Shown here: positions 1 through 6,398 of the stretch, in pieces
Numbering within the stretch: position 1 is the stretch's first letter
How the letters are laid out: each line of letters opens with the position of its first letter
Origin: Candidatus Heimdallarchaeota archaeon
GTDB lineage: Archaea; Asgardarchaeota; Heimdallarchaeia; Heimdallarchaeales; Heimdallarchaeaceae
Assembly (NCBI GenBank): GCA_021399345.1
Contig: JAAFKI010000090.1
Span: 1 to 10,502, forward strand
Direction: 5' to 3'
Length of the DNA stretch: 10,502 nucleotides
Program-made: the position numbers and the translations under genes
Notes under the pieces: generated by a model
The model's input: only the letters and a program-made list of their open reading frames with translations
The model's database searches: none
What the model was told of the DNA's origin: nothing

Positions 1-17
1 GAGCAATTATGACAACT

Positions 18-49
18 AAAAAACCCCCAAAGAATACAAGAACCCCGAG
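18..49. repeat. Direct repeat A, copy 1 (AAAAAACCCCCAAAGAATACAAGAACCCCGAG)
   Basis: 29/32 ungapped identity to 1819-1850, including an exact 18-mer GAATACAAGAACCCCGAG (32-49 = 1833-1850). On the minus strand it ends in a T-tract. Confidence 0.9.
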
Positions 50-85
50 AGAATGATACTACAGAAATAGAGAATAAAGGGTTGG

Positions 86-128
86 GAGGTCTTGGAGAAC
101 TTTGAACGTAGGAGGTGATCTATCCGCA
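86..128 (-). repeat. Direct repeat B, copy 1: fragment resembling the 16S rRNA 3' end plus a downstream hairpin
   Basis: 93-128 vs 3430-3465 is 31/36 identical. 110-128 (AGGAGGTGATCTATCCGCA) matches the reverse complement of the conserved 16S 3' end (AGGAGGTGATCCAGCCGCA) at 17/19. Confidence 0.85.
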
Positions 129-150
129 AATTAGGTGTCACACTTTTCAT

Positions 151-165
151 ACGAACTTTTATTAG
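151..165 (+). promoter_or_regulatory. Putative archaeal BRE/TATA promoter of the subtilase gene
   Basis: ACGAAC-TTTTATTAG resembles BRE + TATA, about 55-60 nt upstream of the ATG at 218. An SD-like AGGAG lies at 203-207. Confidence 0.45.
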
Positions 166-217
166 GCGAGTAATCATTAATTTAGTAATACTCATTCAAG
201 GAAGGAGTTGACAAAAA

Positions 218-1765
218 ATGAATAAAAAACTTATTACTATTCCAGCTCTAGTTTTTCTTCTATTTTTACTAGTAGTAGGGAATATTTCCACCGTAAAAGG
301 TGTAGAATGGCCTGAAATAGAAGAACCAGATCCTCAAGTTATATCTTGGGGTTTAGATGTAATAAATGCAGAAAAAGTATGGGGAGGAAATGAAGATGCA
401 ACAATGATATGTGCAAATCCAATTGCTACAGGAGCAAGGATTAATGTTGCAATCGTAGATAACGACTTTGATTATATGCATAATGATTTGATTGATCGTT
501 TTGCAAATGATCCTAATTTTGAAGAATCTCTTGCTAATCATGCCCATGGTACTGAATGTGCAGGAGTTCTTGCTGCAAGTGATAATGGTAAGGGGATAGT
601 AGGTGTAGCTCCAGAAGTGAATTTATACAGTATCCATGGTAGACCCGATTATTCTCTAACAGATGCTTTGCAACAAATAATAGAAATGAATACTGATGAT
701 GATTCAACTAACGATATATCTGTGATTTCGATGAGTTTAACTTTAGGTCCAAGTGATGACTTAATCAATAAAATTGCTATTTTGTATGAACAAGGAGTTT
801 CCATTGTACTTCCTTCAGGTAATGCTATAGATATCACAGCTGAAACTTATGGACACGGTGTTCGTTGGGGTTTTATCTCAGATAAAGTAATCATTGTAGG
901 AGCTATAGCTGAACCAGATGACCCCAATGATCCAGCTGACTATGAACTAGCTACTTGGCCTACTTACTGGGGAACTGGAGGAAGTAATTATGATGTAGAT
1001 CCTGGAGATCCTAGCGTTTGTCTTGTTGCTCCTGGAGATACAGTTCTAACAACTTATATTAGAACATCGGGAAGCCAAACTGATTCTACATATATATATG
1101 TATCAGGAACTTCTATTGCTACGCCTATGGTTGCAGGTGTAGTAGCTTTAATGCAAGAAGTCAATCCTGTTCTCAGAAAGGATTGTGATGCTGTAAAGCA
1201 AATACTTGAAGAAACAGCTTTTACATTAACGGCAGATGAAGACGCAATAGCAAAGTTTGGTGCTGGTTTGGTTCAAGCTGATGCTGCTGTTAGTCTAGCT
1301 CAAGAGTACCTTGATTATGATAGAGATGGAGATACCTTGAAAGACATAACGGAATACATTCATGGTCTAGACTGGCATGATAATTCTGATGGATTAGCTG
1401 ATCAAGATGTAGATGGATTGATTACTAGAGATGAAATAATGATTCACAATACTTTCTGGTATGATTACGATAGCGATGATGATGGTTGGAGTGATGGAGA
1501 CGAATGTGCTATATATGGAACAAATGGTCGTAGTAGTGAAGATACACCTATGCTAGACCATGATGGAGACGGCATAATAACTAAAACAGAAGTAGATGGC
1601 TTTTATATGGATGAATTTGGGTGGATATATACAGAACCCTATAATTCTGATACGGATGGTGATTCTTGGTCAGATGGCTATGAAATAGCGCCTTTAGGAT
1701 ACTTTGAAACACCATCTGATCCAACAGATCCGTTTAGTGTTCCACGTCCTTTTACGAGATGGTAA
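218..1765 (+). CDS. Secreted subtilisin-like serine peptidase (family S8) with C-terminal Ca-binding thrombospondin type-3-like (DxDxDG) repeats
   Basis: Signal peptide aa 1-28. Catalytic D81 (VAIVDND), H110 (HGTECAG), oxyanion N202 (SGN) and S299 (SGTSIATPMVAG). C-terminal repeats DRDGDTL, DVDGL, DSDDDGWSDGDE, DHDGDGI, DTDGDSWSDGYE. Confidence 0.93.
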   Translation: MNKKLITIPALVFLLFLLVVGNISTVKGVEWPEIEEPDPQVISWGLDVINAEKVWGGNEDATMICANPIATGARINVAIVDNDFDYMHNDLIDRFANDPNFEESLANHAHGTECAGVLAASDNGKGIVGVAPEVNLYSIHGRPDYSLTDALQQIIEMNTDDDSTNDISVISMSLTLGPSDDLINKIAILYEQGVSIVLPSGNAIDITAETYGHGVRWGFISDKVIIVGAIAEPDDPNDPADYELATWPTYWGTGGSNYDVDPGDPSVCLVAPGDTVLTTYIRTSGSQTDSTYIYVSGTSIATPMVAGVVALMQEVNPVLRKDCDAVKQILEETAFTLTADEDAIAKFGAGLVQADAAVSLAQEYLDYDRDGDTLKDITEYIHGLDWHDNSDGLADQDVDGLITRDEIMIHNTFWYDYDSDDDGWSDGDECAIYGTNGRSSEDTPMLDHDGDGIITKTEVDGFYMDEFGWIYTEPYNSDTDGDSWSDGYEIAPLGYFETPSDPTDPFSVPRPFTRW

Positions 1766-1770
1766 CAAGT

Positions 1771-1801
1771 AATTTTTTTTTCTTATTTTTTCTTATTCTT
1801 T
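1771..1801 (+). terminator. T-tract (archaeal-type) terminator of the subtilase gene
   Basis: T9 run at 1773-1781 followed by CTTATTTTTTCTTATTCTTT, starting a few nt after the stop codon. Confidence 0.55.
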
Positions 1802-1818
1802 GTCTAATTGCATTATTA

Positions 1819-1850
1819 AAAAAACCTCTAACGAATACAAGAACCCCGAG
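1819..1850. repeat. Direct repeat A, copy 2 (AAAAAACCTCTAACGAATACAAGAACCCCGAG)
   Basis: 29/32 identity to 18-49 in the same orientation. It lies between the convergent ends of the two protease genes. Confidence 0.9.
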
Positions 1851-1900
1851 CGTAAGAGAAGATTCTTTTAAAAATTGTAAACAAGTTTTATAAAATATAT

Positions 1901-1912
1901 AAAAAAAAGAAA
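1901..1912 (-). terminator. T-tract terminator of the caspase-like gene
   Basis: A8 run at 1901-1908 on + (T8 on -), about 10 nt past the stop codon at 1917. Confidence 0.45.
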
Positions 1913-1916
1913 CGAA

Positions 1917-3329
1917 CTATAGATAGAAAGAATTCTCTAAATCTCCATCTAAAATCATCCCTCTCTCAGGAGGTTTAAAGAAGTTTCGTAAAAGATCTCC
2001 AATTTCATGTGTATCCTCAAATGCTTCTTCCATAGAGTGGTCATAACCGTAATAACCCTCATATGTACCATAGTAATAATTCACTTCTTCAAGCAATAAA
2101 AGTTTAAGGAACCATACTGTGAATAACCCATCAGATAACACATAATTGCCTGAAGAAATATACAATGTGTTACTATCTATATAATCATCAACATAATATT
2201 CTAACCAATAACCAGAGAAACATGTTCCAAAATAGACGAAAGTTTGACACTGTAAAGGTAGAGTATTCTTAAGTTCTAGATCATTGATGGATTTATCATC
2301 TGCACACACAATATAACCACTTGGATCTATGCCATGGGAACCAAATATAACTGAGAGCATATCATTCTCAACTAAATTACTCCCTAATTCGTCCAATTTT
2401 ATCATTAAATTAATAAATGTAGCAGGGCCTTGATAATCACCTTCTGCATATGCAAGATATTCTTCTTGAAGGTAATTTTCATAATTTCCATAAAAATATA
2501 TTTCATCATAACGCATTGAGTATTTGAAGAAACTGTACCATTCATTGGCTCTATCAATATTTGATGGTAAATCGTCCGCATCCTCGAAGTATGCGATTAC
2601 TGCTATGACAGCAACACTTTTTCCAGCATTCAAATCAGTAAAGTCTACTACATTGTTTCCTCCACTTAGACCTGTTGAAGTATGTTTGATTTCTTTTATT
2701 CCACTCTTGTGAATCGCGATATCGTAATCTCTCGGTACTGCATTAGTAACAGCTTCGAATTCATAATAACCAGTGGAATCAGTAAATACTTTCTGTAAAA
2801 CCTCTCCTGTCCATGTTCTTATCAAATAGACTCTAGCATTTTCTATTGGTTCATTTGGGTTGCTGTTATCATATACATGACCTTTGAAAGTTGTCTGAAT
2901 TGAACCAAAAAACTCTAATTCAAAGTTTACCTCAAAACTACTACCCCATCTCGAAGATCCTGGCACTGGTTTGCTTTTCCAATAAAAATTAGCTCTAGAT
3001 GCTCTTATGCTGTATAGCTTGAATCTACTTGTTTCATAAGTTATACTGAATTCTCCATCAGGTGAAGTAGAATGTGTATGCCCTACGACTGAACCGTCTT
3101 CTAATAATTCAATCAATGCATCTGTTAAGGGCTCACTGGTTGGAGGATCTCCATACATCCCCATTACTGTTCCAAAATATGTCATTTCAGTTGTAGCAAA
3201 ACTGTTTTGTTGTATAAATGTAAAACTAATAAGAATACTGAAGATTATTAAAATGATTTTTACAATGTTTTTTCTTTGTTTAATTAATCCCAATTTATTT
3301 CCACTTCCTCTTCGATATTTATGATTCAT
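1917..3329 (-). CDS. Secreted or membrane-anchored clan CD (caspase/legumain/gingipain-fold) cysteine peptidase with two carboxypeptidase-regulatory-like (Ig-like) domains
   Basis: Hydrophobic N-terminal segment aa 22-39. Two G-x-V...EP-x-x-x-A-x-[IV]...T...DG/TG beta-sandwich modules (aa ~49-140 and ~146-233). The catalytic domain has strand-His LSVIFGSHG (H332) and strand-Cys FVYFGTCFSG (C370). Confidence 0.8.
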   Translation of the reverse strand: MNHKYRRGSGNKLGLIKQRKNIVKIILIIFSILISFTFIQQNSFATTEMTYFGTVMGMYGDPPTSEPLTDALIELLEDGSVVGHTHSTSPDGEFSITYETSRFKLYSIRASRANFYWKSKPVPGSSRWGSSFEVNFELEFFGSIQTTFKGHVYDNSNPNEPIENARVYLIRTWTGEVLQKVFTDSTGYYEFEAVTNAVPRDYDIAIHKSGIKEIKHTSTGLSGGNNVVDFTDLNAGKSVAVIAVIAYFEDADDLPSNIDRANEWYSFFKYSMRYDEIYFYGNYENYLQEEYLAYAEGDYQGPATFINLMIKLDELGSNLVENDMLSVIFGSHGIDPSGYIVCADDKSINDLELKNTLPLQCQTFVYFGTCFSGYWLEYYVDDYIDSNTLYISSGNYVLSDGLFTVWFLKLLLLEEVNYYYGTYEGYYGYDHSMEEAFEDTHEIGDLLRNFFKPPERGMILDGDLENSFYL

Positions 3330-3421
3330 TCTAGAAGAATCGAATATATATTTAATTTGAGATTTATAAGTAATTGCTATAAATTGAACAAATAAATTTT
3401 GTAAAAGTTGTTAACTTCAGT

Positions 3422-3466
3422 GAGATCTCTGGAGACCTCCGAACGTAGAAGGTGATCCATCCGCAG
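3422..3466 (-). repeat. Direct repeat B, copy 2: fragment resembling the 16S rRNA 3' end plus a downstream hairpin
   Basis: Minus strand reads CTGCGGATGGATCACCTTCT-ACGTTC-GGAGGTCTCCAGAGATCTC. 3447-3466 matches the conserved 16S 3' terminus at 18/20. It begins 2 nt past the stop codon of the HEPN gene. Confidence 0.85.
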
Positions 3467-3468
3467 TC

Positions 3469-4386
3469 TTATAAATTTTTTACTCTCTCCTCAACTTCTT
3501 CTCTTGAAAATAGACTGTTTAACTCAGATTGTGCTTTAATGAAATCTTTCATTATGAAATCATTATCTATTATTTCTGGATTTTTCTCAAGCAAAACAGA
3601 ATCTAATTTTATTATGATCCTTTGGGAAACCTCCAATAGCTGATTAATTGTCTCCAAACCAATTTCAATCTTCATTCCTAATTTTACATCTTGTCTATTG
3701 GTTTTTCTAAGAAATATCTGATTTACTTTCCCATCTCCATGAGTATAGATATCTCTAATAAGCTTCAACTCTGACAATTCATCAATTAGCTTATTTTCTA
3801 TATTGTGTTTCAAACCAATTTTCTTTTGTATATAGGTTTTCAACGTACTTCTATACCCTTCATATAATTGATTGTGGATACTTTTTGATATCATCTCTTC
3901 AATTATATCTTTTTTTTCCTTTGTTTCAAGTTCTTTTGCACTAAATGTTATTTTTCCCAATATCCCTGGGTTTTTCTTAAGTAGAAAAGTAATGAAAGAA
4001 ATGATATAATTGTCAGATTCAGTAAAAATAAACTGTATAGCATATCTATAAATAAACTCTAGATATTTTTCAAAACTAAATTCCTCAAAAATAAAATCTA
4101 AAGCCTTCTTATGGCTTTTTTTCATAGTTATTCTGACTTTCCCCTCTTCAAGCTCTTCACTATAGGGGATAGTTTTTCTATCAAGATCTACCTTTTTCAA
4201 TGTTTTTCCAAAATTTGAAAGTTCTTCTTTCAGTTCTTCTGTATAGGGAAATATTTTTTTCATACGTGTGATAGAAAATTGCATATATCCTATAAACGTG
4301 AAAATCCTTTGAATATATTTCGAGTAGAATTTGCTTCCTAATTCTGATGCATTTTTACTCATTTTCTTTTCCCCTTCATTTTTCAT
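3469..4386 (-). CDS. Putative HEPN-domain ribonuclease (hypothetical protein); alternative start at Met9 (4362)
   Basis: Lys/Glu-rich protein that appears helical. It carries an RxxxxH motif ELKLIRDIYTHGDGKVN (R211/H216) and an upstream acidic helix FTESDNYI, as in HEPN RNases. It overlaps the upstream gene by ATGA (4383-4386). Confidence 0.65.
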   Translation of the reverse strand: MKNEGEKKMSKNASELGSKFYSKYIQRIFTFIGYMQFSITRMKKIFPYTEELKEELSNFGKTLKKVDLDRKTIPYSEELEEGKVRITMKKSHKKALDFIFEEFSFEKYLEFIYRYAIQFIFTESDNYIISFITFLLKKNPGILGKITFSAKELETKEKKDIIEEMISKSIHNQLYEGYRSTLKTYIQKKIGLKHNIENKLIDELSELKLIRDIYTHGDGKVNQIFLRKTNRQDVKLGMKIEIGLETINQLLEVSQRIIIKLDSVLLEKNPEIIDNDFIMKDFIKAQSELNSLFSREEVEERVKNL

Positions 4387-5192
4387 CTAAATTTTCCCCT
4401 TTCTTTGGTTTGTTTAATAGTTTTCCTTGCAGTTTGTACAATTAATCCCTCATAAGTCATCCAAGTTAATGCGCATAAAAACGATAAAGCCAAAAGAATA
4501 ATTAAAGCAATCACTGGATTTTGTAACTTGTTTGTATAATTCGATATTAGTATTATATTGAAGAAACCCATGATTAGAATCAAATTAAGAATCCTTAAAC
4601 CCCATAAAATAATATAGTATCTTCTTTTCTTTTTCTTTGACATTTGTTTTAAAGTCTCATGTTCATAATGGTGAATTGCACTTTTTTTGTCTGGTATTAA
4701 TCCTCTTCTAACTTCTTTGTCTATTTCAAGTTGAAAAGACAGAAGATTTTCAGTAATGTATGTGGATCCATCAAGACAACCTGAGAGCTCAAAAACATAT
4801 TCTCCATCTGGAATGTACTTTTTAGCTCTAAAGCTTATGAGTTTTGTAACACTAGAACGTGGCTCAACTCCTATTCCTACAAATTCTGTGATTGTTTCTT
4901 CACTATCAATTGAAAAACCTTCACTGAATTTCGAAACTTGAAATTCAAATTTTTTATCATTTGATAACGAAATTAGGGTTCCTGTAAGATAATTAACAGT
5001 ATGTGAGTAGCTTCCAGAATTTGTTAATGCTAGAGGAAAAGCTATACAAAAATCCTCTTCATCTCTCCACAGAAAATGCATATTTGGTTCTCCAAAGAGA
5101 ATCTTCCCTTTGCGTAAGTATTGATAATAGAAACCTAATACAGATATAAATAATGCTGCAATAGCTATGAACAATGCTTCATCCATTTCCAT
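4383..5192 (-). CDS. Membrane protein: N-terminal TM helix, soluble Ig-like (LEA_2/WHy-like) domain, two C-terminal TM helices
   Basis: TM ALFIAIAALFISVLGFYYQY. Beta-rich middle with IAFPLALTNSGS. A basic stretch KKKKRR precedes the TMs YYIILWGLRILNLILIMGFFNIILI and PVIALIILLALSFLCALTWM. Confidence 0.7.
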   Translation of the reverse strand: MEMDEALFIAIAALFISVLGFYYQYLRKGKILFGEPNMHFLWRDEEDFCIAFPLALTNSGSYSHTVNYLTGTLISLSNDKKFEFQVSKFSEGFSIDSEETITEFVGIGVEPRSSVTKLISFRAKKYIPDGEYVFELSGCLDGSTYITENLLSFQLEIDKEVRRGLIPDKKSAIHHYEHETLKQMSKKKKRRYYIILWGLRILNLILIMGFFNIILISNYTNKLQNPVIALIILLALSFLCALTWMTYEGLIVQTARKTIKQTKERGKFR

Positions 5193-5240: not shown

Positions 5241-6398
5241 TTAATTTTTATCAATTATTTGTTGATAATTTCTTTTTGTTTCATAGTAAACAATCATCAG
5301 AATTATTGTGAAAAATGGGAATACCTCAAAAATTAAAGAACTCGTTCTCTCACTCTCTTTTCCTTCTAGAACAACTTGTTCTTCAATAGGATACAAATCA
5401 AAATTATTTGCTTTTCCTTCAATATAGTATATAGAATCTCCTTTTAAATCATCCCAATAGTTACCCTTTTTTCCACCCTCATAGTACCAATAATTCTCTC
5501 TTCCTTCGTCTCTTCCTTGTGAACGTCCATCTAAACTGTTATTCAGAAAATCATTTAGATATATTCTATTTCTCTCACACTCATCATCTAAAAACAACCC
5601 CCTAACTTTATTATCTTTGAAGAGATTAAAATTCAACAAACACCCAATTGTACTATCTAGCTTCATCCCTCTTAACCCATTTCCTTCTATAGTGTTGTTC
5701 ATGATTGCTGATCCACTTACTTCCTCTAAATATGCCCCCTCTTCACCATTTCTTGAAATGGTATTATTGTATAATATTGCATCAGTTCCTCCCATGTATA
5801 TACCTTTTTCCCCATTTTCAAAACATTTATTCTCATAAATTATCCCATTCTCAATAACAGCTATACTCATCCCTGAGTCTCCGTTAGCATAACAAGTATT
5901 ATTCTTCAATACCAAATTATAAATAAGAACTAATACCATACCCGATGATTCATGATTGGAACAGATATTGTCTTCAATCAGCACATCCTTGGCAACGTAG
6001 ATGACTATTCCATCACCATTTTCCTCTTCACTACTCACACAGATGTTATTCTCAATTCTAGCTCCACCATCAACCATATTTTCAATCAAAATACTTGTGT
6101 GTGAAACATCAATGTAACAGTTCCTGATAAGAAACTGCTTGGTAGTTGAAGTGATATAGATTCCAAAAGAAGTGCTAGATGTAATATTATAGTTCTCAAT
6201 CAAGTAAGGATCTTCATATGTACCTGAACCTGGAAAAACTAGGAAATCTTCATCTGAACTGATTTCGATAGGATTATGAGAAATGAGCAGAGTATTCTCA
6301 CTATTTGGATTAACTGTAGTCTCTCCGTCAACTGTGAATGTTAAAGAAATTGAAACACAAAGTAGAATAATTGTGTTTCTTTTCCATGAAGAAGTCAT
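5241..6398 (-). CDS. Right-handed parallel beta-helix (NosD/pectin-lyase-like) surface protein with signal peptide and C-terminal TM anchor
   Basis: N-terminal cap HNPIEISSDEDF..FPGSGTYEDPYLIENYNI. Repeated ~22-aa IxNNxxxxNxxxGI units. C-terminal IYLNDFLNN...GNYWDD...DLYP, then TM LIFEVFPFFTIILMIVYY. Confidence 0.88.
   Translation of the reverse strand: MTSSWKRNTIILLCVSISLTFTVDGETTVNPNSENTLLISHNPIEISSDEDFLVFPGSGTYEDPYLIENYNITSSTSFGIYITSTTKQFLIRNCYIDVSHTSILIENMVDGGARIENNICVSSEEENGDGIVIYVAKDVLIEDNICSNHESSGMVLVLIYNLVLKNNTCYANGDSGMSIAVIENGIIYENKCFENGEKGIYMGGTDAILYNNTISRNGEEGAYLEEVSGSAIMNNTIEGNGLRGMKLDSTIGCLLNFNLFKDNKVRGLFLDDECERNRIYLNDFLNNSLDGRSQGRDEGRENYWYYEGGKKGNYWDDLKGDSIYYIEGKANNFDLYPIEEQVVLEGKESERTSSLIFEVFPFFTIILMIVYYETKRNYQQIIDKN

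What the first reader, a model, noticed from the sequence alone, without database searches (positions are those of the whole stretch)
86..3466. Two dispersed direct repeats that copy the 3' end of 16S rRNA: candidate att scars of integration at the rRNA gene
Seen: 93-128 and 3430-3465 are 31/36 identical and in the same orientation, although the neighbouring genes point in different directions. Their minus-strand consensus is CTGCGGATGGATCACCTCCT-ACGTTC-GGAGGTCTCCAGAGACCTCC. Known: prokaryotic 16S rRNA ends in ...CTGCGGCTGGATCACCTCCT (helix 45 3' strand plus anti-SD), and site-specific integrases that target tRNA/tmRNA genes leave displaced 3'-end duplicates. Both copies share the same deviation (GCGGAT instead of GCGGCT), which may be the host's own 16S sequence. 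Similarity stops abruptly at about CTGCGG in both copies, as expected at a crossover point. Inference: this is a tandem island array built by repeated integration at the 16S rRNA 3' end, a target I do not know to be commonly described. No integrase is present in the window.
Basis: partly seen in the sequence, partly recalled or inferred. Interest (0 to 1): 0.88.

Follow-up and report, generated by a model that had tools for sequence, protein, structure and literature searches.

The report
Spare 16S rRNA tails joining gene blocks
The two repeats are leftover spare copies of this Asgard archaeon's own 16S ribosomal RNA gene tail; they mark the joints of accessory gene blocks that have piled up just behind the 16S gene, so an rRNA gene end is used here as an insertion site the way tRNA gene ends are in other microbes, with no integrase in sight.

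Summary
Observation confirmed. 93-128 and 3430-3465 match 31/36. On the minus strand each copies the genus's own 16S 3' end, including the GCGGAT deviation, plus the start of the 16S trailer. Copy 1 carries the whole trailer to the contig end, and 1819-1857 is a third, partial copy.

The window is a whole contig of a Heimdall-group Asgard MAG. By synteny, the real 16S gene lies about 1.1 kb beyond its right end, on the minus strand.

In at least 15 species of the genus, and in three other genera, same-direction copies of this tail and trailer lie behind the 16S gene. They separate blocks of unrelated, fast-changing genes.

In a closed relative (G045), 134-nt repeats starting exactly at CCTGCGG bracket 6.5 kb of a stretch that fits the published mobile element HeimM2.

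Of 17 displaced copies, all but one stop at or 3' of the helix-45 loop.

No recombinase lies in the window or in any cassette tested. Four genomes, one of them closed, have no detectable tyrosine recombinase.

Its integrase att mechanism is not shown, and homologous recombination clearly reshapes the arrays.

This scan has noted the same kind of array before on other Asgard DNA.

The parts
111..128 (-). Copy 1, 16S tail: the last 18 nt of the 16S gene (from TGCGG), with one mismatch to the genus sequence
   Evidence: Upstream of it (129 and beyond) is not 16S.
82..110 (-). Copy 1, proximal trailer: the TACGTTC word plus the first trailer hairpin, here decayed
   Evidence: Matches the G009 trailer. 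The hairpin no longer folds (-1.3 kcal/mol, against -19.1 for the G009 version).
18..81 (-). Copy 1, distal trailer: the 3' arm of the pre-16S processing stem, ending in a T6 run (18-23)
   Evidence: Pairs with this genome's own 16S leader on C194, cofold -75.8 kcal/mol. 94% identical to the G009 trailer.
218..1765 (+). Cassette gene: secreted subtilase (Peptidase_S8), 515 aa, antisense to the repeats
   Evidence: Pfam E 2e-33. No orthologue in 24 other species of the genus; best hit 40% identity.
1819..1857 (-). Partial trailer copy: the end of the processing-stem arm plus a T run, 60 nt after the stop of the 470-aa gene
   Evidence: 85% identical to 18-56. Two mismatches to the distal trailer word.
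1917..3329 (-). Cassette gene: 470-aa protein with a CarboxypepD_reg domain, lying between the proximal and distal parts of a trailer copy
   Evidence: Pfam. No orthologue in the genus. A 33%-identical paralogue on C113 lies beside a paralogue of the large ORF.
3420..3466 (-). Copy 2: the last 19 nt of the 16S gene (3448-3466, from CTGCGG, one mismatch), then TACGTTC and the first trailer hairpin (3420-3447). It starts 2 nt after the stop codon of the 305-aa gene.
3469..4386 (-). 305-aa protein of no family. It has an Rx4H word and a weak lead to RiboL-PSP HEPN. I saw no recombinase features.
   Evidence: GC 28-29% against 33.5% for the genome.
4383..5192 (-). 269-aa predicted membrane protein of no family. 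Its gene overlaps the start of the 305-aa gene by 4 nt.
5241..6398 (-). NosD-like beta-helix protein, 385 aa. It lies next to the large ORF in several congeners too.
   Evidence: Pfam. Orthologues lie beside the 16S-side large gene in G022, G017, G023 and G016, and a truncated one in G013.
6511..10500 (+). Large ORF (more than 1330 aa, runs off the contig). In relatives it is the convergent neighbour of the 16S gene, so it places the real 16S about 1.1 kb beyond position 10502.
   Evidence: 61% identity to G013 L021 9239-14182, which ends 16 nt from that genome's 16S trailer. The first 345 nt of this genome's 16S lie at the start of contig C194.

Best explanation
**What the repeats are.** They are displaced spare copies of the organism's own 16S rRNA gene tail. 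Each holds the last 18-19 nt of the 16S gene, starting just 3' of the helix-45 loop. Each is joined to the 16S 3' trailer, which is the 3' arm of the pre-16S processing stem and ends in a T-run terminator.

**Where they lie.** They sit downstream of the real, unassembled 16S gene. In the two congeners checked (G009, G013) this stretch is the 16S-to-23S interval. They mark joints between blocks of accessory genes: subtilase; the 470-aa protein; the membrane protein with the HEPN-like protein; and then the older NosD-like gene with the large ORF.

**How a joint most likely arose.** DNA was recombined into the end of the 16S gene. The gene kept a complete tail, and the previous tail plus trailer was pushed downstream. 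Repeated events give a same-direction row of copies.

**The likeliest route.** No integrase is detectable, and copies within a genome are alike over their whole 100-135 nt. I therefore favour recombination through the tail-and-trailer homology itself. Circles looped out between two copies would re-enter at any copy, and copies would also undergo unequal crossing-over and gene conversion. An unidentified activity at the helix-45 loop would have founded the duplication.

**Later history.** The copies then decay or are trimmed. That is the state of the two in this window: one mismatch each in the 16S tail, a lost hairpin in copy 1, and a gene lying inside copy 2's trailer.

**Shown:** the identity of the repeats, their link to the rRNA locus, variable cargo, the recurrent boundary, and reshuffling by homologous recombination.

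**Inferred:** the position of this genome's 16S gene, the insertion events themselves, and the enzyme.
For: 1. **Identity.** Both copies equal the congeneric 16S end plus trailer. The trailer arm pairs with this genome's own 16S leader, 25 of 26 in the distal helix by my own pairing of the sequences, with a cofold energy of -75.8 kcal/mol.
2. **Locus.** Trailer words occur only on this contig in the assembly. The large ORF is the 16S neighbour in G013, G022, G005, G017 and G023. The 5' end of the 16S gene is at C194:1-345.
3. **Arrays.** 17 of 24 congeners have trailer copies. In the 15 species whose regions I fetched, they lie in same-direction rows behind the 16S gene.
4. **Cargo.** It is heterogeneous and lies in either orientation: TPR-like 530-aa paralogues, beta-lactamase-like, alpha/beta hydrolase, HEAT, STAND NTPase, Schlafen/AlbA_2, S9 peptidase, LRR and HEPN_AbiV. 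The window's subtilase and 470-aa genes have no orthologue in 24 congeners.
5. **Closed genome G045.** 134-nt repeats at 95.5% identity start exactly at CCTGCGG and bracket 6.5 kb. The stretch fits HeimM2, described as inserted exactly behind the only 16S gene (PMC8813620).
6. **Boundary.** Of 17 displaced copies in four genera of two families, 16 stop at or 3' of the helix-45 loop. Five end within CCTGCGG.
7. **Cargo versus copies.** Paralogues within one array are about 40% identical, yet the trailer copies beside them share species-specific hairpins.
8. **Two trailer types.** Long and short trailer types swap between the 16S-attached and the displaced position among congeners.
9. **Homologous recombination.** A 96%-identical gene unit sits at different array positions in G005 and G022, with one break point inside a gene.
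10. **No integrase.** None in the window. PF00589 finds none in G000, G009, G013 or the closed G045.
Against: - This genome's real 16S 3' end and trailer are not assembled, so no attL-like partner can be shown here. The layout rests on synteny with relatives.
- No empty-site allele with identical flanks was found.
- A block next to the 16S gene (large ORF, NosD-like) is shared by several congeners, so at least that part is old.
- The distal trailer word is nearly invariant in all copies, even where the rest is lost. That could mean the copies are kept for a function (terminator or processing signal) rather than being passive joints.
- Many 3' and 5' limits of copies are ragged: mid-hairpin in G046 and G004, and shorter tails in 11 of 17 copies.
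- The same 5' limit in different genera is not expected from homology-driven insertion alone.
Confidence: 0.55

Rival explanations
1. Classical att scars. Each block is, or was, an integrative element with its own tyrosine or serine integrase. Its attP copies the 16S tail. The crossover lies in or beside the helix-45 loop, just as integrases use the anticodon or T loop of tRNA genes.
For: - The 5' limit recurs at the loop of a perfect inverted repeat (helix 45) in four genera.
- The 16S gene stays whole in G045, G013 and G022, with a displaced partial copy downstream.
- Two structurally different trailer types exchange places at the 16S tail.
- From my own knowledge, this geometry is the known sublocation preference of integrases at tRNA and tmRNA genes (Williams 2002, Nucleic Acids Res).
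Against: - No integrase was found in any of about 50 ORFs in and around these arrays that I scanned.
- PF00589 has no hit in G000, G009, G013 or the closed G045.
- The blocks are mostly single genes of 1.5-2 kb.
- Repeats are identical over 100-135 nt and carry host-species-specific polymorphisms, which is more than an attP core would share.
Confidence: 0.15
2. In-place tandem duplication only. One old duplication began inside the 16S tail and copied the tail, the trailer and the next gene. Unequal crossing-over then multiplied the unit, and gene conversion from the real trailer keeps the copies alike. No DNA came in from outside.
For: - Most units in congeners hold one paralogous 530-aa TPR-like family at about 2-kb spacing.
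- Recombination break points lie inside genes.
- A boundary inherited by descent would explain the common limit within the genus.
Against: - Blocks with unrelated genes in both orientations sit between copies, including those in this window.
- The window's block genes have no orthologues in congeners.
- Paralogues within an array are deeply diverged, and their closest relatives are in other species.
- One copy in another family reaches 7 nt further into the 16S gene, so there was more than one founding event.
- The published element at this site is reported to be targeted by CRISPR spacers (PMC8813620).
Confidence: 0.15
3. Homing-endonuclease-driven insertion. A free-standing LAGLIDADG endonuclease gene lives just behind the 16S trailer. 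It cuts endonuclease-free alleles near the 16S end, and repair of the break copies in, or captures, neighbouring DNA.
For: Orthologous LAGLIDADG ORFs (56% identity) lie directly after a 16S tail-plus-trailer copy in two genera (G016 L027 275-889; G045 L051 11498-12118). They are present in only 3 of 47 genomes of the order, a patchy pattern typical of homing genes. Wu et al. proposed this role for it (PMC8813620).
Against: - The gene is absent from this genome and from most genomes that have arrays.
- In G045 it lies outside the repeat-bracketed segment.
- Homing by gene conversion does not by itself create 100-135-nt direct repeats.
- Its cleavage site is unknown.
Confidence: 0.08
4. The copies are kept for their own function. 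They could serve as terminators or insulators for genes placed in a strongly transcribed rRNA locus, or as alternative partners of the 16S leader. In that case their spread is selected rather than a by-product of insertion.
For: - The distal trailer word plus T run follows stop codons by 10-60 nt in many units. It stays nearly invariant where the rest of the copy is lost.
- Copy 1 can still form the full stem with the leader.
Against: - This does not explain why copies include the 16S coding tail, which is of no use to a terminator.
- The tail and the first hairpin are decaying in this window.
- An oligo-T run is thought to suffice for archaeal termination (my own knowledge).
- This reading is compatible with the main explanation rather than an alternative origin.
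Confidence: 0.07

Closest known systems
HeimM2 and HeimV2 of Candidatus Heimdallarchaeum (Wu et al. 2022, Nat Microbiol, PMC8813620)
   Same: These mobile elements are reported as inserted exactly behind the only 16S rRNA gene of a Heimdall-group archaeon. One carries an LRR protein and an rRNA-intron-type homing endonuclease. In a closed 3.08-Mb genome of the same family as the window (G045) I find this layout: 16S gene, LRR gene, LAGLIDADG gene, tRNA.
   Different: The main text has no occurrence of 'direct repeat'. Here the LRR block is bracketed by 134-nt repeats of the 16S tail and trailer, and the endonuclease gene lies outside them. The window has neither an LRR gene nor an endonuclease gene, and its copies are decayed.
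Genomic islands and tandem arrays at tRNA/tmRNA gene 3' ends (tyrosine-integrase att sites; tycheposon-type accretion)
   Same: - A displaced partial copy of the 3' part of a stable RNA gene lies downstream, while the gene stays whole.
- The copy starts at a loop flanked by inverted-repeat arms.
- Copies form same-direction rows.
- Cargo is accessory and partly defence-like.
   Different: - The target is the 16S rRNA gene (helix 45 to the 3' end plus trailer), not a tRNA.
- No integrase is found in the blocks or, for PF00589, in the whole genome.
- The repeats are 100-135 nt long and host-specific.
Sedentary chromosomal integrons and integrase-less attC clusters (CALINs)
   Same: Rows of small accessory-gene cassettes are separated by a repeated non-coding element. 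In CALINs there is also no integrase.
   Different: - The repeat is an rRNA tail plus a processing-stem arm, not an attC palindrome.
- Cassettes point either way and have their own upstream regions.
- There is no IntI, attI or Pc.

Membership tests
Integrase-built islands at stable-RNA gene 3' ends (att scars) | The direct repeat is the 3' part of the RNA gene, and the gene itself stays intact | tested here: inconclusive
   Met in relatives (G045, G013, G022). This genome's 16S 3' end is not assembled.
Integrase-built islands at stable-RNA gene 3' ends (att scars) | A tyrosine or serine integrase gene at one end of the island | tested here: not met
   None in the window or in the cassettes of relatives. 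PF00589 finds none in G000, G009, G013 or G045.
Integrase-built islands at stable-RNA gene 3' ends (att scars) | The repeat boundary lies at a loop between inverted-repeat arms, which would be the recombinase core | tested here: met
   16 of 17 displaced copies stop at or 3' of the helix-45 loop, and five end within CCTGCGG.
Integrase-built islands at stable-RNA gene 3' ends (att scars) | Excision: a circular junction and an empty site | not testable with these tools
No exact-protein contigs are on record.
Integrase-built islands at stable-RNA gene 3' ends (att scars) | Island content varies among close relatives | tested here: met
Integrons / CALINs | IntI integrase with attI and Pc | tested here: not met
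   No PF00589 match in the genome.
Integrons / CALINs | attC-type imperfect palindrome as the cassette boundary | tested here: not met
   The repeat equals the 16S tail plus trailer and pairs with the 16S leader, not with itself. No dedicated attC model was run.
HeimM2-type element (Wu et al. 2022) | Inserted directly behind the single 16S gene | tested here: met
   By synteny with G013 and others, and from the 16S 5' end on C194.
HeimM2-type element (Wu et al. 2022) | Carries the LRR protein and the LAGLIDADG endonuclease | tested here: not met
   Neither is in the window. No close homologue of the endonuclease is in G000.
IS200/IS605-type TnpB element | A TnpB (and TnpA) gene beside the repeat | tested here: not met
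   G000 has 21 TnpB-like matches, none on this contig. Pfam finds none in the window ORFs.

The most novel reading that the evidence does not exclude
The end of the 16S rRNA gene, from the helix-45 loop to the trailer terminator, is a dedicated gene-capture site of Heimdall-group Asgard archaea. It would be served by a recombination activity of a kind not yet recognised, because no known integrase family is present. One specific, untested variant is RNA-mediated. The copies begin exactly one base 3' of the two universally dimethylated adenines of the helix-45 loop, where reverse transcription of rRNA stops. They end just past the transcript's terminator. So the spare tails could be cDNA copies of the pre-16S 3' end.
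Probability: 0.12. Interest if true: 0.85.

Novelty: new variant of a known kind. Interest (0 to 1): 0.62.

Why it matters
Integration at the 3' ends of tRNA and tmRNA genes is a textbook rule of microbial genome evolution. An rRNA gene end used in the same way, and apparently without an integrase, would extend that rule to a new target and possibly a new mechanism.

It occurs in the archaeal group usually placed closest to eukaryotes, where rDNA is itself a well-known landing site for specialised mobile elements.

There are practical consequences too:
- It explains why 16S genes and their surroundings assemble so badly in these MAGs.
- It explains why the 16S and 23S genes are separated by 6-11 kb of protein genes in the two congeners examined (G009, G013).
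- It points to where strain-specific accessory and defence-like genes are likely to be found.

Tried and rejected
- **Rfam on the window**, permissive threshold: no match. The copies are too short to score as rRNA.
- **16S and 23S searches of the own assembly:** no match. BLAST against relatives' loci then found the first 345 nt of the 16S gene on C194 and the last 681 nt of the 23S gene on C199.
- **Genome-wide dispersed repeat:** rejected. All trailer words lie on this contig only.
- **Assembly chimera through an identical repeat:** rejected. The copies differ from each other and from relatives, and the same architecture is seen in a closed genome.
- **Extended Shine-Dalgarno reading of the plus strand:** rejected. 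Copy 1 is 90 nt from the next start codon, and the match continues for 110 nt of rRNA trailer.
- **The 530-aa family as a hidden recombinase or nuclease:** rejected. The AlphaFold model (pLDDT 88) is an all-helical TPR-like solenoid, and Foldseek finds only TPR scaffolds. It has no Pfam, NCBIfam or PHROG family.
- **The 305-aa gene beside copy 2 as an integrase:** no support.
- **A shared 30-nt word after copy 2 and in G013:** not significant.
- **Exact-protein contig look-up:** nothing on record.
- **Literature:** one full-text search for integration at the end of the 16S gene found no paper naming it as an attB.

Full report
**1. The observation**

The window is the whole of contig C17 of a 3.27-Mb, 199-contig MAG with 33.5% GC. 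The repeat finder returns 93-128 and 3430-3465 as a direct pair at 31/36. A 25-nt pattern with 23 fixed bases, taken from the shared core, occurs twice in the window and in none of 200 shuffles. The assembly has no third copy even at five mismatches.

A second direct pair, 18-56 and 1819-1857 (85%), turned out to belong to the same story.

**2. What the sequence is**

Earlier notes of this scan label the MAG as a Heimdall-group Asgard archaeon. Its relatives' small-subunit rRNA genes match the archaeal Rfam model.

A pattern search in 40 relatives found the exact complement of the repeat core in 9 of 24 congeners. In the loci with enough sequence, Rfam shows this is the true 3' end of a full 16S gene. 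The genus's 16S gene therefore ends in TGCGGATGGATCACCTCC.

The sequence that follows the 16S gene in the closest relative, G009, matches window 7-128 at 94% over 122 nt. It matches window 3422-3466 at 93% over 45 nt.

On the minus strand the copies are therefore:
- Copy 1: the last 18 nt of the 16S gene plus the entire trailer, to the contig end.
- Copy 2: the last 19 nt plus TACGTTC and the first trailer hairpin.
- 1819-1857: the distal trailer only.

Upstream of the (C)TGCGG word, neither copy has any 16S sequence.

**3. What the trailer does in its real place**

Contig C194 starts with the first 345 nt of this genome's 16S gene, preceded by its leader. A leader word is the near-perfect complement of the distal trailer. 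By my own pairing of the sequences, 25 of 26 positions pair in the outer helix. Cofolding of the leader with copy 1 gives a stem of about 56 bp with small bulges, at -75.8 kcal/mol. G013's leader and its real trailer fold the same way.

The trailer is thus the 3' arm of the pre-16S processing stem, and it ends in a T run. In relatives the inverted match upstream of the 16S gene is this leader arm.

**4. Where the window lies**

The large ORF at 6511-10500 is 61% identical to a 1647-aa gene of G013. That gene ends 16 nt from G013's 16S trailer and converges on the 16S gene. Homologues hold the same place in G022, G005, G017 and G023. The NosD-like gene at 5241-6398 accompanies it.

About 980 nt of the ORF are missing from the window. 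The real 16S 3' end should therefore lie about 1.1 kb beyond position 10502, on the minus strand. That fits the break in the assembly.

In G009 and G013 the 16S and 23S genes point the same way and are 5.9 and 11.4 kb apart, with protein genes between them. The last 681 nt of this genome's 23S gene are at the end of C199. So the window most likely lies in the interval behind the 16S gene, which in those two congeners runs on to the 23S gene.

**5. The same architecture in relatives**

A BLAST search of the genus with copy 1 finds trailer copies in 17 of 24 congeners. In the 15 species whose regions I fetched, they lie in same-direction rows behind the 16S gene, often about 2 kb apart.

Most units hold one member of a 530-aa paralogous family (31 members in the fetched loci). 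That family has no Pfam, NCBIfam or PHROG match. Its model is an all-helical TPR-like solenoid.

Other units hold unrelated genes in either orientation:
- beta-lactamase-like
- alpha/beta hydrolase
- HEAT repeats
- STAND NTPase
- Schlafen/AlbA_2
- S9 peptidase
- LRR
- HEPN_AbiV

The window's own block genes, the subtilase and the 470-aa protein, have no orthologue in the other 24 species.

**6. Beyond the genus**

A pattern search of the order found extra 16S tails in three more genera.

- **G045.** This is a closed 3.08-Mb genome. The 16S gene (L051 3055-4532) is followed by three small ORFs and a 1171-aa LRR gene. Next comes a second copy of the 16S tail and trailer, then a LAGLIDADG ORF and a tRNA. 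The two copies are 134 nt long and 95.5% identical. They begin exactly at CCTGCGG and end about 20 nt past the T run.
[quoted passage not shown] HeimV2 (44 kb) is reported at the same site in the sister genome (PMC8813620). The identification rests on genome size and gene layout only.
- **G046.** In this 3.33-Mb sister genome, partial trailer copies lie 38 and 41 kb behind the 16S gene.
- **G042 and G035.** G042 has a displaced copy 4.85 kb behind its 16S gene. G035, from another family, has two.

**7. The boundary**

I lined up 17 displaced copies against the matching real 16S end.
- Five begin within CCTGCGG (G045, G016b and both window copies) or its equivalent TGCGGG in G035a.
- Two, G013 and G042, begin one to five bases further in, depending on how mismatches are read.
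- Nine keep only 8-16 nt, which looks like erosion.
- One, G035b, reaches 7 nt further, through the loop and 3 nt of the 5' arm.
- None includes the rest of the 16S gene.

CCTGCGG is the first word after the GGAA loop of helix 45, a perfect inverted repeat in DNA. From my own knowledge of Williams 2002, this is the geometry that integrases use at the anticodon and T loops of tRNA genes. It is the best argument for a site-specific step. It is also the position one base 3' of the two dimethylated adenines, which I note only as a speculative alternative.

**8. Arguments against a classical integrase**

None of about 50 ORFs in and around these arrays has a recombinase domain. PF00589 has no match in G000, G009, G013 or the closed G045. 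It has one match in G046, far from the locus. Small serine recombinases (1-4 per genome) and TnpB-like genes (6-27 per genome) exist, but not at the joints and not on this contig.

The repeats within one genome are alike over their full length and carry species-specific hairpins. An attP shared among hosts would not do that.

**9. Evidence for homologous recombination and for turnover**

In the 530-aa family tree, members of one array are deeply diverged, and their nearest relatives are often in other species. Yet the trailer copies beside them are homogeneous within each genome.

G005 and G022 share a unit (upstream element, gene, distal trailer) at 96% identity in different array positions. 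Their flanks are 82-90% identical, and one break point lies inside a gene.

Two trailer types exist, a short one and a long one with two extra hairpins. Each is the 16S-attached trailer in some species and a displaced copy in others. This shows exchange at the conserved 16S tail.

**10. The homing endonuclease**

Orthologous free-standing LAGLIDADG genes (56% identity) lie directly after a tail-and-trailer copy in G016 and in G045. A third is at a contig start in G020. Only 3 of 47 genomes have one. This patchy distribution at a fixed position is typical of a homing gene and may feed breaks into the site. However, the gene is absent here, lies outside the bracketed segment in G045, and does not by itself explain long direct repeats.

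**11. State of the copies in this window**

- Each 16S tail has one mismatch, at different positions.
- Copy 1's first hairpin no longer folds (-1.3 kcal/mol, against -19.1 in G009).
- In copy 2 the trailer stops after the hairpin. The 470-aa gene, with its own AT-rich upstream region, follows. The distal trailer reappears 60 nt after that gene's stop.
- The block with the membrane protein and the HEPN-like protein has 28-29% GC, and the subtilase gene 36-40%, against 33.5% for the genome.

These are old, partly eroded joints.

**12. Verdict**

'Joints of blocks inserted at the 16S end' is the best reading.

The integrase att mechanism is unproven. On present evidence it is less likely than recombination through the tail-and-trailer homology, with an unknown founding activity at the helix-45 loop.

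The site was already known as a landing place for two Heimdallarchaeum elements. I did not find the following in the paper's main text or in my searches:
- the repeat structure
- its fixed start in helix 45
- its spread across the order
- the lack of any integrase

Earlier notes of this scan describe the same kind of array behind the 16S and 23S genes of other Asgard genomes. I treated them as leads only.

Noticed in passing
L031 about 10085-10140 (G001), L033 about 170-230 (G017), L036 about 465-525 (G021); displaced copies L032 about 1667-1720 (G016) and L026 about 5561-5590 (G022): Some 16S genes of the genus carry a hairpin insertion of about 33 nt exactly after CCTGCGG, between helix 45 and the anti-Shine-Dalgarno end. 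The stems show compensatory changes between species. G016 and G022 have the insertion only in a displaced copy, not in their 16S gene. It could be an expansion hairpin or a mini-intron; I could not tell which.
   Followed up: partly
L021 about 14373-14420 (G013), L025 about 10325-10370 (G005), L023 about 118-165 (G004), L034 about 470-516 (G023); L026 and L027 near the AAGTCGTAACAAGG word: Further species-specific hairpin insertions lie in the 5' arm region of helix 45 and just before it. They fall within otherwise universally conserved 16S sequence.
   Followed up: no
L024 478-2076 and 2312-4063, L028 456-9150, L029, L030, L031; own genome C194:1150-2832 and 31609-33186: A family of about 530 aa with no Pfam, NCBIfam or PHROG match forms tandem arrays around the 16S and 23S genes. 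Its model is a TPR-like solenoid (pLDDT 88). One deep clade is a conserved single gene divergent from the 16S gene. Each array gene has a conserved upstream element of about 130-200 nt.
   Followed up: partly
L027 275-889 (G016), L051 11498-12118 (G045), L060 17-454 (G020): A free-standing LAGLIDADG endonuclease gene lies directly behind a copy of the 16S tail and trailer. It is present in only 3 of 47 genomes of the order.
   Followed up: partly
L023 and L025 (G004, G005), L054 (G042): In some species the 16S and 23S genes are divergent rather than in tandem. In G042 the leader arm that pairs with the 16S trailer lies about 2 kb upstream of the 16S gene, with 66-69-nt tandem repeats in between (L054 11713-12405).
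   Followed up: no
whole genomes G000, G009, G013, G045: No Pfam Phage_integrase (PF00589) match anywhere, so not even a Xer-type recombinase is detected. One of these genomes is closed.
   Followed up: no
window 3469-5192 (minus strand): Two overlapping genes of low GC (28-29%). One encodes a 269-aa membrane protein. The other encodes a 305-aa protein with an Rx4H word and a weak lead to RiboL-PSP HEPN. Together they may be a defence or abortive-infection pair.
   Followed up: partly
own genome C113:2672-7043: A paralogous pair lies elsewhere in the genome: a 470-aa-like gene (33% identity, one in-frame stop) divergent from a large-ORF-like gene (38% identity). The two families may therefore work together.
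   Followed up: no
L024 5867-5884 (G009) and L021 3013-2996 (G013): A conserved word resembling a 16S tail (TGCGTGTTTATCACCTCC) lies about 100 nt upstream of the 23S gene in two species. It may be chance or an old relic.
   Followed up: no
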